From: Minisyncoccia bacterium
Lineage (GTDB): Bacteria; Patescibacteriota; Minisyncoccia; Phycocordibacterales; UBA6065
Assembly: GCA_044233485.1 (NCBI GenBank)
Contig: JBIIJY010000003.1
Coordinates: forward strand, 32,481 to 96,480
Direction: 5' to 3'
Length of the DNA: 64,000 nucleotides
This document shows positions 55,901-58,900 of the stretch, one piece after another. Position 1 is the first letter of the stretch; each line of letters begins with the position of its first letter. Position numbers: made by a program.

Positions 55901-58900
55901 GTCACTCTTGAACCGCTCGCGACTGCGACGCGTGTACCAGGTAGAGACATCATCAACAAGCGTTGTCAGTTCTCGAACACCAACATCAAGAGTATACGAC
56001 TCAAGAGCATGTGTGATAGCTGCATGCGCTCCGCGAAGGCGTTCAATCATCCAGCGGTCGAGAATATGTGTTGTGTGAGCCTGTGCACTGATAGTCTCAT
56101 CAGCATAGAGCTTATAGAGAGTTAAGACATTTTCCAGACGATTTAAAACTTTGTTCTGGACTTCGGCTACTGATTTTTCAGAGAAATGTAGATCTTCCGC
56201 TGAAACAACCGGTGAACCAAGGAGGACAAGTCGCAGAGCGTCCATACTGTATGCTCGAATGACCTCGAGCGGGTCTGGATAGTTTTTGAGACTCTTGGAC
56301 ATTTTCTTACCATCTTCTGCCAACACAAGACCGTTCACAATCACGTTCTTAAATGGACTTCGTCCAAAGAGTGCTGTACCGAGCACAAGCAGAGCATAGA
56401 ACCAACCACGAGTCTGATCGAGTCCTTCAGCAATAAAGTCCGCCGGAAATCCCTTTCCTTGAGCTGGATCAAAAGCCATCGTCGGTGTTCCAGTAAAACA
56501 AGCCTCGCCGTACGGCATTGAACCAGATTCAAACCAACAATCAAAGACATCTGGCACTCGAGTCATCAACTTTCCTTTTGAATCAAGTATTTCAAGACCA
56601 TCGATATACGGTCGGTGAAAATCGATTTCGTATGAGGGGTTACGCGGAAGTTTTACACTGAGCACTTCTCGAACTTCAGCGTTACCAAATGGCGCAACGA
56701 GCTCATCAGTAACATGTCCGAGAAAATGACTTTGCAATACTCGTAGAGGTGTACCATGAGCAATAATCAAAACATTTTTGCCAAAAAACTTTTCTGAAAT
56801 ATCTTCTACAGCTGCAACCATACGAGCGCGCACTGCAGTCAGATTTTCCATATCAGGAAGCGTGTAGGTAAAGGCTTGCTTACGATGTGGAAACTGTGCG
56901 TGGAATTCTTCCCAGTTTTTCCCATGAAGGGCGCGAGCACCGAGTTCACCAAGTCGTGGATCAACAACGATATGTGCATCAGAAAGCCCGAGGACATCTT
57001 GCACCTCTTTAAATGTCTCCTGTGTGCGCACGAATGGAGACACCGCCACCACATCTATATGTTTACCTTTGAGTTTTTGAGCACTCAAGCGCACCTGGGC
57101 TACCCCTTCAGGAGTGAGGTGATCTGGCGCATTTGGATCAGTACTGACTTTATTCTGAAGATTACTTTCGGCTTGCCCGTGACGCATCAGATACAGCGTG
57201 TTGCGGACTTTTGAATGTGCCACAATATCTTCAACTGTACTGAGAACTTTTACTTCAGTACCATCTTCACTTTTCCATACCGGTAGTGGCGCCCCCCAGT
57301 ATCGAGTACGTGAGATTGCCCAATCGCGAGCACCCTGGAGCCACTTTCCAAAACGCCCTTCCCCCACATGAGAAGGCACCCAGCGTACATCTTTATTAGC
57401 AGCTACGAGCTCGTCTTTGAAAGATGTTACTTTCACAAACCAACTTGAGGCAGCGTAGTTTAGAAGCGGAGTCTCACAGCGCCAACAATGCGGATATGAG
57501 TGAACGAGTTTTTCCTTTGCGAAAAGCGCACCGTGCATATGAAGCCACTTGATGACTTCTACGTCTGTTTTCTGATGAGGATCCTTTTCCCCTGCATCAC
57601 CCTTCGGCTTTACATACAACCCGACGAAATCACGAACCTCGGGCTTGAAACGCCCGTCGACGCCGACATGCTGAATAAATGGCAGAGAGTGTTTTACACC
57701 GAGCTGATAGTCGTCTTCGCCATACCCAGGAGCGATGTGAACTACCCCGGTACCATCGTCAGTTGTAACGAAGTCTGCGGCATAGATTTTCCAGCCATTC
57801 TCGCGATTCTTGAGATTAGAATCCTGGGCGTAGTAATCGAAAACCGGCGCATATTTCTTACCAGTAAGAGCTAAACCCTTATACGTCTTTAGAATTTTGA
57901 AATCTTTCTTAAATAGCGTCTCGACGCGAGCTTGAGCAACAATATACTTTTCAGAACTACCAACTAACTCAACCTCTGCATAATCTATTTCAGAATTGAC
58001 CGCAAGAGCGACGTTACCAGGAAGTGTCCAAGGTGTGGTCGTCCAAGCAATGATAAAAGTCTGTGGTTCGTCGACCAGCGCAAATTTTACATACACTGAG
58101 ATATCAGTGATATCTTTGTACCCCTGATTCACCTCGAAGTTTGAAAGCGTTGTTCCACAACGTGGACACAAATGCATACTCTTGAATCCTTCATAGACTA
58201 ACCCCTTATCAAACAATGTTTTAAAGACCCACCAGACGGATTTGGTGTACTCAATGTCCATTGTCCGATAGTCATTCTCCATGTCTACAAAACGCCCAAA
58301 TCGCGGCACTTGCTCACGCCAAACTCCAGCGTATCGAAGCACTACCTCTCGAGCAGTTTCATTGAACTTCTGAATTCCAAACTGCTCAATGTCTTTTTTA
58401 CTCTTGAGTCCAAGCTCTTTCTCAACAAGGTTCTCTATCGGAAGCCCATGACAATCCCATCCCCATCGTCGAGGTACACGAAACCCACACATCGTCTTGT
58501 ACCGAGGAATGACATCTTTGATTGAGCCCGCCAAAATATGTCCATAATGAGGAGTACCTGAAGCAAAGGGTGGACCATCGAAGAAAATAAATTCTCCACG
58601 TGGAGCGTTTTTCTCCAAAGTCTTTTCGAAAATTCGATGCTGCTTCCAATGGGCGAGAGTTTTTTCTTCTCGTCGCGCCGTTTCGCTCATGTGTGGATTT
58701 GTATGTGACATAAAATAAATAAAAGAATAAGCCAGACGCGAGTGAGTCTGGCTTATCTTTTGAGGAATTAAGTCAAACTCACGAGGTACTACCCGTTACT
58801 AATTGCAATAGAAATTCGTGTACCTCGGTTTGACTTCATGTGATGTATAGTAATACGTCTCGGGTCTCTTTTCAAGCTACTTAAGTGTAGCGGTCCTACC

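What the first reader, a model, noticed from the sequence alone, without database searches (positions are those of the whole stretch)
56627..57229. Isoleucyl-tRNA synthetase with a complete histidine-phosphatase (RHG/PGAM-like) domain inserted in its CP2 region
The IleRS gene is otherwise canonical (HIGH, editing domain, KMSKS, anticodon-binding region). About 200 extra residues are inserted between the conserved WGxPxP and DVxDxWFxSG segments. That insert carries the full motif set of branch-1 histidine phosphatases: LxLxRHGxxxxN (LYLMRHGQAESN), SPxxRxxxT (VSPFVRTQETF) and the second catalytic His in IIAHGTPLRVL. Conservation of these residues argues for an active phosphatase or phosphomutase rather than a decayed spacer. 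I know of no described IleRS with such a module. It could act on a phosphorylated nucleotide or metabolite (PGAM-family enzymes include CobC and nucleotide or sugar-phosphate phosphatases). It could alternatively be a novel editing or regulatory function, or a moonlighting glycolytic mutase in a reduced genome. The gene is 1151 aa against the usual ~920-1050.
Basis: partly seen in the sequence, partly recalled or inferred. Interest (0 to 1): 0.85.

Follow-up and report, generated by a model that had tools for sequence, protein, structure and literature searches.

The report
Isoleucyl-tRNA synthetase with embedded active phosphatase
An essential protein-synthesis enzyme of tiny "Patescibacteria" carries a complete, well-conserved phosphatase domain inside its catalytic body; relatives have fused or gene-linked such phosphatases to this one enzyme repeatedly, pointing to an undescribed partnership whose chemical target is unknown.

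Summary
ORF 55256-58711(-) is a complete type-2 IleRS (TIGR00392, 835 bits). About 190 residues (aa 502-690) form a branch-1 histidine phosphatase (PF00300, E=1e-32; AF2 pLDDT 95).

The insert sits in subdomain CP3, not CP2. It is not an artefact: at least 554 species genomes of Paceibacteria/Parcubacteria carry it. R510, H511, G512, R562, E589 and H652 are invariant in 121 sequences that are about 50% identical overall.

It is a small PhoE/PspA-like phosphatase, not a mutase. All dPGM, CobC, SixA and PspA equivalog cutoffs are missed, and the same window encodes a bona fide iPGM (2827-4359).

New evidence:
- In related lineages a free-standing homolog lies directly upstream of an insert-less ileS (argS-HP-ileS-recO, 2-8 bp gaps or a 4-bp overlap).
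- In Gracilibacteria, Peregrinibacteria and Peribacteria, His_Phos domains sit at three other IleRS sites, as old separate events.
- One variant carries a HAD phosphatase instead.
- No other aaRS is a carrier.

So phosphatase-IleRS linkage appears repeatedly selected. The substrate and the purpose remain unknown. I found no description in the literature.

The parts
55256..58711 (-). Whole gene: bifunctional IleRS::histidine phosphatase, 1151 aa plus stop (possible alternative start at M8, 58688-58690)
57209..58711 (-). IleRS N-terminal part, aa 1-501: first half of the Rossmann fold with HIGH (HYGH aa 55-58, 58538-58549), CP core, CP1 editing domain (WTTTPWTLPGN 223-233; GTGVVHIAPGYGEDD 320-334), CP2, and the first half of CP3 (WGAPLP 472-477 ... 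helix 493-499)
56642..57208 (-). Inserted histidine phosphatase domain, aa 502-690 (Pfam core 506-670 = 56702-57196). First strand 502-510 and last strand 680-686; the linkers to CP3 are very short and confidently modelled
57176..57184 (-). R510-H511-G512: the RHG motif. H511 is the predicted phospho-accepting nucleophile
   Evidence: 100% conserved in 121 sequences; coordinates
57026..57028 (-). R562, phosphate-pocket arginine (motif SPFVRTQET)
   Evidence: invariant
56945..56947 (-). E589, predicted general acid/base
   Evidence: invariant in fused forms; at least 90% conserved when free-standing forms are included
56756..56758 (-). H652, second catalytic histidine (IIAHGTPL)
   Evidence: invariant
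55259..56641 (-). IleRS C-terminal part, aa 691-1151: second half of CP3 (DFHRPYID 697-704), second half of the Rossmann fold (DVFDCWFESGSMPYG 721-735, DQTRGWF 765-771, KMSKS 803-807 = 56291-56305), anticodon-binding domain (885-1027), and C-terminal DUF5915
60573..62270 (-). argS (ArgRS). Part of the conserved synteny argS-[phosphatase slot]-ileS-recO-DUF11/CLIPPER. In relatives with unfused genes, the free-standing phosphatase gene sits between argS and ileS
54710..55246 (-). recO-like gene (178 aa, RecO_N only), the conserved downstream neighbour

Best explanation
The gene encodes one polypeptide with two catalytic activities. (1) It is a complete, editing-competent, type-2 (eukaryote-like) isoleucyl-tRNA synthetase. 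(2) It also contains a catalytically competent branch-1 histidine phosphatase of the small PhoE/PspA-like kind. This would act as a phosphomonoesterase through a phospho-His511 intermediate: R510, N517, R562 and H652 hold the phosphoryl group and E589 is the acid/base. The domain is spliced into the helix-helix loop of the CP3 subdomain with short, rigid linkers. It is the fused form of a two-gene module: in related Parcubacteria a free-standing homolog is encoded directly upstream of, and probably co-translated with, an insert-less ileS. The linkage to IleRS has been selected repeatedly: four insertion sites, an operon form, and one HAD-phosphatase substitute. The phosphatase therefore most likely serves IleRS or its immediate surroundings by hydrolysing a small phosphorylated molecule. 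The coupling would work through proximity or equal stoichiometry rather than a fixed channel, because the attachment points differ. Shown: the domain identities, motif conservation, purifying selection, distribution, synteny, the multiple sites, and that it is not the cell's glycolytic mutase. Inferred: that both activities are real, and that the partnership is functional. Unknown: the substrate.
For: Domain calls and curated cutoffs. IleRS motifs are intact. The catalytic residues are invariant across 121 sequences about 50% identical, and the RHG motif, R562 and H652 are also invariant in free-standing homologs, with E589 at least 90% conserved. dN/dS is 0.038 in the insert and 0.018 in the rest of the gene, and amino-acid identity is 91% vs 90%, against a 90%-identical ortholog. 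At least 554 genome loci carry it, and 79 of 80 have exactly one copy, inside ileS. The AF2 domain model has pLDDT 95.3; the full-length model has pLDDT 87.7 and pTM 0.82 with confident junctions. The nearest folds are PspA, HFP, PhoE and GpgP. A free-standing homolog lies directly upstream of insert-less ileS in L081, L086, L088/89, L090/91 (4-bp overlap) and L092; it lies 1.6 kb upstream in L094 and directly after argS in L084. Sites A-D were verified. Copies cluster by site, and site A is nearest to the free-standing genes. A HAD phosphatase occupies site C in P0456. Among the 150 closest representatives, 93 are IleRS and no other aaRS appears.
Against: There is no biochemical evidence for either activity. 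ileS operons in other bacteria contain functionally unrelated genes (for example ribF and lspA in E. coli; my own knowledge), so adjacency alone is weak evidence. Gracilibacteria-type IleRS also hosts GNAT, P-loop kinase, serine hydrolase, DUF559 and Y1-transposase domains, so IleRS may simply tolerate insertions. One free-standing homolog (L085) is not near ileS. The cap region of the domain (aa 590-621) is poorly conserved, which gives no clue to a specific substrate. I could not inspect model coordinates to see where the phosphatase pocket points.
Confidence: 0.6

Rival explanations
1. Permissive-carrier model. The phosphatase is an ordinary housekeeping enzyme unrelated to aminoacylation. 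It became embedded in IleRS only because its gene lay next to ileS and because surface loops of IleRS tolerate insertions. Fusion gives co-expression and genome economy, nothing more.
For: IleRS of related lineages also carries GNAT, kinase, hydrolase, DUF559 and IS200-like transposase domains. The four different attachment points argue against a precise geometric coupling. The cap region is poorly conserved. One free-standing homolog is encoded elsewhere.
Against: The same family was recruited at four sites as old, separate events. An unrelated phosphatase fold sits at the same site in P0456. About 105 of the 120 best Gracilibacteria-type IleRS hits carry His_Phos, while the other domains are sporadic. 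No other aaRS is a carrier among the closest 150 representatives. An internal in-frame insertion does not arise from simple stop-codon loss between neighbouring genes.
Confidence: 0.27
2. The domain acts on the tRNA/aminoacylation system or on IleRS itself. Candidates are removal of a 3'- or 2'-phosphate from tRNAIle ends, dephosphorylation of IleRS after attack by a kinase toxin, or destruction of a phosphorylated IleRS-directed inhibitor. That would make it a new proofreading, repair or immunity function.
For: The association is specific to IleRS. In relatives it co-occurs with P-loop (AAA_33/Zeta-toxin-like) kinase, GNAT and serine-hydrolase domains, all of which modify small molecules or RNA ends. 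Histidine phosphatases include protein phosphatases (SixA, PGAM5, Sts-1; my own knowledge).
Against: There is no direct evidence. The nearest structures are small-molecule phosphatases. SixA's cutoff is not met (49.6 vs 74.5 bits). The HAD substitute is of the small-molecule HAD_2 type. Attachment points vary.
Confidence: 0.1
3. Moonlighting glycolytic cofactor-dependent phosphoglycerate mutase in a reduced genome.
For: It belongs to the PGAM superfamily, and dPGM models give weak hits.
Against: All dPGM equivalog cutoffs are missed by a wide margin (66 vs 225; 52 vs 316; 38 vs 81.7). The domain is about 185 aa, without the dPGM C-terminal tail. Its nearest folds are phosphatases. The same 64-kb window encodes a full-length iPGM above the equivalog cutoff (TIGR01307, 568 vs 331 bits).
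Confidence: 0.02
4. A catalytically dead structural spacer, or an assembly chimera.
For: None beyond the unusual architecture.
Against: It is found in at least 554 independent genome assemblies, including a closed chromosome (CP060229), and on a 681-kb contig. Its composition equals that of the host gene. The catalytic residues are invariant and dN/dS is far below 1.
Confidence: 0.01

Closest known systems
Type-2 / eukaryote-like isoleucyl-tRNA synthetase (e.g. S. cerevisiae 7D5C/8WND, human 9W01, P. megaterium IleRS2 8C8U, T. thermophilus 1ILE)
   Same: Full domain set and motifs. PDB phmmer scores are 640-700 bits, against 330 for type-1 S. aureus 1FFY. TIGR00392 is above its cutoff.
   Different: About 190 extra residues forming a phosphatase domain replace a loop of about 9 residues between the two CP3 helices. 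The CP3 Zn-knuckle cysteines seen in about a third of relatives are lost in this protein.
Small broad-specificity histidine phosphatases: PhoE/YhfR (1H2E, 1EBB), PspA phosphoserine phosphatase (4IJ5/4IJ6), riboflavin-pathway HFP (9MMH), GpgP Rv2419c (4QIH)
   Same: Same fold (Foldseek TM 0.75-0.80, E about 1e-13). Same catalytic set: RHG, Arg, Glu and a second His. Similar size of about 190-210 aa.
   Different: Only 22-26% identity. No curated equivalog cutoff is reached. It is embedded in another enzyme, or operon-linked to ileS. The substrate is unknown.
NCBIfam NF040702 'isoleucine--tRNA ligase, N-acetyltransferase domain-containing'
   Same: A curated precedent for an IleRS that carries an extra catalytic domain. 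GNAT-bearing IleRS of Gracilibacteria and Peregrinibacteria often also carry His_Phos.
   Different: The window protein has no GNAT and scores 333 bits against a cutoff of 1999.
Rv2228c-type bifunctional RNase H / CobC-like acid phosphatase (NCBIfam NF005567)
   Same: A branch-1 histidine phosphatase fused to a nucleic-acid enzyme. It is the best NCBIfam hit of the insert (71 bits).
   Different: The cutoff is 326 bits, so it is not a member. That protein is an end-to-end fusion, not an internal insertion. The partner enzyme is different.
Cofactor-dependent phosphoglycerate mutase (GpmA)
   Same: Same superfamily and catalytic histidine chemistry.
   Different: It fails all dPGM cutoffs and lacks the C-terminal tail. 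The genome has an iPGM.

Membership tests
Isoleucyl-tRNA synthetase (class Ia) | Curated equivalog model TIGR00392 above its cutoff | tested here: met
   835.4 bits vs cutoff 621.4, in two stretches flanking the insert
Isoleucyl-tRNA synthetase (class Ia) | HIGH and KMSKS signature motifs | tested here: met
   HYGH aa 55-58 and KMSKS aa 803-807
Isoleucyl-tRNA synthetase (class Ia) | CP1 editing domain with the Thr-rich and GTGxVHxAP motifs | tested here: met
   WTTTPWTLPGN 223-233 and GTGVVHIAPGYGEDD 320-334; matches PDB editing-domain chains 1WK8 and 1UE0
Isoleucyl-tRNA synthetase (class Ia) | Isoleucine activation and tRNAIle charging | not testable with these tools
   Needs enzymology
Histidine phosphatase superfamily, branch 1 (PF00300) | Profile match above the gathering threshold | tested here: met
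   113.8 bits in the whole protein and 118.5 bits for the insert alone, vs cutoff 21.7
Histidine phosphatase superfamily, branch 1 (PF00300) | Catalytic core: RHG His, two Arg, Glu, and a second His | tested here: met
   R510, H511, G512, R562, E589 and H652 are 100% conserved and N517 99% conserved in 121 sequences
Histidine phosphatase superfamily, branch 1 (PF00300) | Alpha/beta fold of the family | tested here: met
   AF2 pLDDT 95.3; Foldseek probability 1.00 and TM 0.75-0.80 to PspA, PhoE and HFP
Histidine phosphatase superfamily, branch 1 (PF00300) | Phosphatase activity | not testable with these tools
   Needs an assay of aa 502-690 with and without H511A
dPGM (2,3-BPG-dependent phosphoglycerate mutase) | Curated equivalog or subfamily cutoffs | tested here: not met
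   NF038349 66 vs 225; NF002339 52 vs 316; TIGR01258 38 vs 81.7; NF010713 35 vs 305
dPGM (2,3-BPG-dependent phosphoglycerate mutase) | Being the cell's only phosphoglycerate mutase (the 'needed in a reduced genome' argument) | tested here: not met
   An iPGM at window 2827-4359 scores 568 vs 331 bits on TIGR01307
CobC alpha-ribazole phosphatase / SixA / PspA | Curated equivalog cutoffs | tested here: not met
   TIGR03162 64.5 vs 162.9; TIGR00249 49.6 vs 74.5; NF045917 45.8 vs 350
   The break maps to yeast residues about 496-499, inside CP3 (Sc 459-526)
ileS_w_GNAT (NF040702) | Model cutoff and presence of a GNAT domain | tested here: not met
   333 vs 1999 bits; no GNAT in Pfam

The most novel reading that the evidence does not exclude
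In Patescibacteria, IleRS is a platform to which enzymes that modify small molecules are repeatedly tethered. These are mostly phosphatases of two unrelated folds, and in some lineages also GNAT acetyltransferases, P-loop kinases and serine hydrolases. They would carry out a so-far unknown IleRS-centred task. One possibility is destruction, at the target, of natural IleRS inhibitors or toxin-made modifications. Another is healing of damaged tRNAIle ends. Either would be a new kind of synthetase-associated quality control or immunity.
Probability: 0.15. Interest if true: 0.9.

Novelty: new variant of a known kind. Interest (0 to 1): 0.74.

Why it matters
Aminoacyl-tRNA synthetases are among the best-studied enzymes. 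Extra catalytic domains inside the bacterial catalytic body, other than the editing domain, are rare. Here a second, apparently active enzyme is embedded in IleRS across a major part of the Patescibacteria (hundreds of species genomes and hundreds of retrieved protein clusters). The same partnership has arisen at four insertion sites, as an operon pair, and with an unrelated phosphatase fold. That pattern is strong comparative evidence for an unrecognised biochemical link between isoleucine charging and hydrolysis of some phosphate ester, in organisms whose physiology is largely unknown. It can be tested directly with recombinant protein. On the practical side, the embedded domain can be mistaken for a PGAM, PhoE or SixA gene in metabolic reconstructions of these genomes. 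It also confuses automatic naming ('class I tRNA ligase family protein', 'GNAT family N-acetyltransferase', and a 194-aa phosphatase named 'isoleucyl-tRNA synthetase').

Tried and rejected
- Assembly chimera: rejected. Many independent assemblies carry it, the composition is uniform, and the ortholog L087 has the same gene order.
- Glycolytic dPGM: rejected.
- 'Missing pyrophosphatase' rationale for a PPi-hydrolysing role: not supported. Peribacteria, which also have the fusion, are reported to encode an inorganic pyrophosphatase (PMC4736985). The single His_Phos-ATP-sulfurylase fusion (P0218) keeps a link to adenylate/PPi chemistry as a weak lead only.
- Recent tandem duplication as the source of multi-copy variants: rejected. 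Copies in one protein are 24-32% identical and cluster by site.
- Metagenome scan with the free-standing alignment: failed because the alignment was too diverse. I replaced it with a profile search plus contig look-ups.
- AFDB fold search: the library was unavailable.
- Model coordinates are not exposed, so I could not measure the distance or orientation between the phosphatase pocket and the synthetic or editing sites.
- Rfam and tRNA scans of the window found nothing.
- Eight literature searches found no paper describing an IleRS-histidine phosphatase architecture. The held library omits most subscription journals, so absence is not proof.
- L075's extra His_Phos between argS and ileS is not a close relative of the insert (57 bits), so it is not a clean 'intermediate'.
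Full report

Yes. The minus-strand ORF 55256-58711 is 1151 aa. Pfam finds the class-I synthetase core split in two (E=1.4e-132). 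It finds His_Phos_1 at aa 506-670 (E=1e-32; the insert alone scores 118.5 bits against a gathering cutoff of 21.7). It also finds the anticodon-binding domain and the IleRS C-terminal DUF5915. The curated IleRS equivalog TIGR00392 is passed (835 vs 621 bits).

So are HIGH, KMSKS and both editing-domain motifs.

The best solved relatives are eukaryote-like type-2 IleRSs (human, yeast, P. megaterium IleRS2, T. thermophilus; 640-700 bits). Type-1 S. aureus scores 330. The alignments stop at query 496-504 and resume at 697, corresponding to human 488 and 498. About 190 residues therefore replace a loop of about 9 residues.

**2. Location.**

I used the published domain boundaries of yeast IleRS (CP2 420-458, CP3 459-526; PMC7955072) and Candida IleRS (CP3 473-534, beta-beta-alpha-alpha; PMC7191050). 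By these the site lies between the two helices of CP3, not in CP2.

The full-length AlphaFold model is confident (pLDDT 87.7, pTM 0.82). The insert and both junctions score 90-97. CP3 helix 493-499 runs almost directly into the first phosphatase strand (502-510), and the last strand (680-686) returns to CP3. The domain is therefore rigidly spliced in.

**3. Not an artefact, and old.**

- All 120 best database hits (49-100% identity, 1107-1258 aa) share the architecture. One is an identical copy on a 681-kb contig.
Their names include Taylor-, Wolfe-, Yonath-, Kaiser-, Vogel-, Nomura- and Lloydbacteria, Paceibacterota and Minisyncoccia. One is a closed chromosome, CP060229.
- In 79 of 80 fetched loci there is exactly one His_Phos. 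It lies inside ileS, and argS-ileS-recO synteny is kept.
- The insert's composition equals that of the rest of the gene (GC 0.47 vs 0.46).

**4. Is the domain likely active?**

- In 121 sequences only about 50% identical overall, R510, H511, G512, T533, G536, S558, R562, E589, E622, R630 and H652 are invariant, and N517 is 99% conserved (repeated).
- I compared the gene with a 90%-identical ortholog (L087). The insert is as conserved as the rest of the enzyme (91% vs 90% amino-acid identity). dN/dS is about 0.04 in the insert and 0.02 elsewhere. dS is saturated, so these values are approximate.
- The domain alone folds with pLDDT 95.3.

**5. What kind of histidine phosphatase?**

No curated equivalog is reached: RNase H/acid phosphatase 71 vs 326 bits, archaeal dPGM 66 vs 225, CobC 64.5 vs 162.9, SixA 49.6 vs 74.5, PspA 45.8 vs 350, and pgm_1 38 vs 81.7.

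The closest solved proteins by sequence (E about 1e-9) and by fold (TM 0.75-0.80, 22-26% identity) are small phosphatases of about 200 aa. They are PspA phosphoserine phosphatase, a riboflavin-pathway histidine-family phosphatase (9MMH), PhoE/YhfR, and glucosyl-3-phosphoglycerate phosphatase. dPGMs rank behind them.

The consensus after the catalytic Glu is 'RLRE-x-x-x-G-x-x-x-GK'. From my own knowledge this resembles the PhoE/CobC-type motif rather than the dPGM 'ERHYG'.

The window itself also encodes a full-length cofactor-independent phosphoglycerate mutase at 2827-4359 (TIGR01307, 568 vs 331 bits). That removes the rationale for a moonlighting glycolytic mutase.

**6. The operon counterpart.**

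The exhaustive search with the insert found 5184 hits at E<=1e-3 but only 2 at E<=1e-30. The list mixes IleRSs with genuine free-standing proteins of 185-210 aa. These share the insert's features, including its C-terminal 'GE-x-R-E/K-L' strand. A profile built from them retrieves 711 proteins at E<=1e-15, with names from Staskawiczbacteria and Pacebacteria.

Their genes lie directly upstream of a normal-length, insert-less ileS in five independent contigs:
- L081: 8-bp gap.
- L086: 6-bp gap.
- L088/89: 3-bp gap.
- L090/91: 4-bp overlap.
- L092: 5-bp gap.

In these contigs the gene lies downstream of argS and is followed by recO and a DUF11/CLIPPER gene. This is the same order as in the window, where argS is at 60573-62270, ileS::HP at 55256-58711, recO_N at 54710-55246 and DUF11 at 52788-54704.

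Three other contexts differ. In L094 the gene is 1.6 kb upstream of ileS. In L084 it overlaps the end of argS. In L085 it lies elsewhere.

The insert-less IleRSs have a short loop at the site and a Zn-knuckle CP3. The fused and the operon forms are therefore alternative states of one module.

**7. Recurrence at other sites and in other lineages.**

Some hits carry two to four His_Phos domains. Mapping against conserved anchors shows four insertion points:
- Site A: the CP3 helix-helix loop. This is the window protein and all Paceibacteria-type fusions.
- Site B: CP3 after 'DLHxxxVD' and before 'RIPEV'.
- Site C: after 'CWFESGSMPYA' and before 'ADFIAEGLDQTRGWFY', in the catalytic domain.
- Site D: after KMSKS and 'YANIDGW', before the 'LDxW' start of the anticodon-binding domain.

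Sites B-D belong to IleRSs named Gracilibacteria, Peregrinibacteria and Peribacteria. About 105 of the 120 best hits of one such protein carry His_Phos.

Of 217 domain copies, 211 keep RH[GAS] and the second His. Copies cluster by site: the nearest neighbour is at the same site in 124 of 130 cases. Copies within one protein are only 24-32% identical. Site A is closest to the free-standing genes (34% vs 27-29%). These are therefore old, separate events.

One IleRS (P0456) has a HAD-family phosphatase at site C and no His_Phos. Among the 150 representatives most similar to the insert, 93 are IleRS or fragments of it and 54 are short proteins. None is another aaRS. The one other carrier is an ATP sulfurylase.

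**8. Interpretation.**

Shown:
- This is a bifunctional architecture with both catalytic motif sets intact and under purifying selection.
- It derives from, or alternates with, an ileS-linked gene.
- Phosphatases have been recruited to IleRS repeatedly.

Inferred:
- The phosphatase is a phosphomonoesterase acting through phospho-His511.
- Its linkage to IleRS is functional.
- Because the attachment points differ, the benefit comes from proximity or stoichiometry rather than a fixed channel.

Unknown: the substrate. The cap region (aa 590-621) is poorly conserved, so conservation centres on the phosphate pocket.

The main rival is that IleRS is merely a permissive carrier. That view is supported by sporadic GNAT, P-loop kinase, serine-hydrolase, DUF559 and IS200-like domains in Gracilibacteria-type IleRS. 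More specific ideas remain untested: tRNA end healing, IleRS dephosphorylation, inhibitor destruction, and local PPi hydrolysis. The 'missing pyrophosphatase' version is not supported, because Peribacteria encode one (PMC4736985).

**9. Novelty.**

Each part is a known kind, and a curated model for a GNAT-bearing IleRS exists (NF040702). Eight full-text searches found no description of an IleRS-histidine phosphatase protein or of its operon form. I rate it a new variant of a known kind. Interest is high because of the breadth, the recurrence and the direct testability.

Noticed in passing
window 2827-4359 (+): A full-length cofactor-independent phosphoglycerate mutase (iPGM_N + Metalloenzyme; TIGR01307 568 bits vs cutoff 331). 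It shows that the genome does not need the IleRS-embedded domain as its glycolytic mutase.
   Followed up: yes
P0167, P0199/L096 9001-13260, P0240, P0481, P0459, P0404, P0424, P0454: His_Phos domains occupy four different insertion points in IleRS: CP3 loop A, CP3 site B, catalytic-domain loop C, and site D at the start of the anticodon-binding domain. There are one to four copies per protein. Sites B-D are in Gracilibacteria, Peregrinibacteria and Peribacteria. Copies cluster by site and are only 24-32% identical within one protein.
   Followed up: yes
P0456 (1504 aa), aa 567-733: An IleRS with a HAD-family (HAD_2) phosphatase inserted at site C and no His_Phos. An unrelated phosphatase fold sits in the same place.
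   Followed up: partly
P0396, P0457, P0472, P0446, P0408, P0244, P0478: Gracilibacteria-type IleRS also carries, in various combinations, GNAT acetyltransferase, P-loop kinase (AAA_33/AAA_18/Zeta-toxin-like), serine hydrolase, DUF559 endonuclease-like and IS200-like Y1 transposase domains. The proteins reach up to 1859 aa. IleRS looks like an insertion hub in these lineages.
   Followed up: partly
L081 4184-4771, L086 5001-5564, L088 5001-5570, L090 5001-5594, L092 5001-5561: Free-standing homologs of the insert (about 186-197 aa) are encoded directly upstream of insert-less ileS and downstream of argS. Gaps are 2-8 bp, or there is a 4-bp overlap. Synteny argS-HP-ileS-recO-CLIPPER matches the window.
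   Followed up: yes
L075 3443-4312: One genome with the fused ileS also has a separate, larger and more distant His_Phos gene (57 bits to the insert profile) in the argS-ileS slot.
   Followed up: partly
P0218 (568 aa): A close relative of the insert is fused N-terminally to PUA_2 + ATP sulfurylase. That is another adenylate-forming, PPi-releasing enzyme.
   Followed up: no
window 58877-60520 (-): A 547-aa protein with no Pfam match, low-complexity and probably membrane-anchored, occupies the slot between argS and ileS where relatives have the free-standing phosphatase. It is conserved in the 90%-identical ortholog locus L087 (546 aa).
   Followed up: no
window 54710-55246 (-): The recO homolog is short (178 aa) and matches only RecO_N. 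Relatives with unfused genes have 239-251-aa RecO with both the N and C domains.
   Followed up: no
window 58688-58711 (-): Start-codon ambiguity. The ORF can start at M1 (1151 aa) or M8 (1144 aa, as in database copies P0001 and P0002).
   Followed up: no
database names: Automatic annotation is inconsistent. Fused proteins are named 'class I tRNA ligase family protein', 'hypothetical protein' or 'GNAT family N-acetyltransferase'. A 194-aa free-standing phosphatase (P0343) is named 'isoleucyl-tRNA synthetase'. The embedded domain could create false PGAM, PhoE or SixA calls in metabolic reconstructions.
   Followed up: no
window 1-64000: No tRNA genes (ARAGORN) and no Rfam family at gathering threshold in 64 kb. 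Other genes include secA, ftsK, asparagine synthase, carbamoyltransferase, an O-antigen-ligase-like protein, a beta-CASP RNase and a DUF87/TrwB-like ATPase.
   Followed up: no
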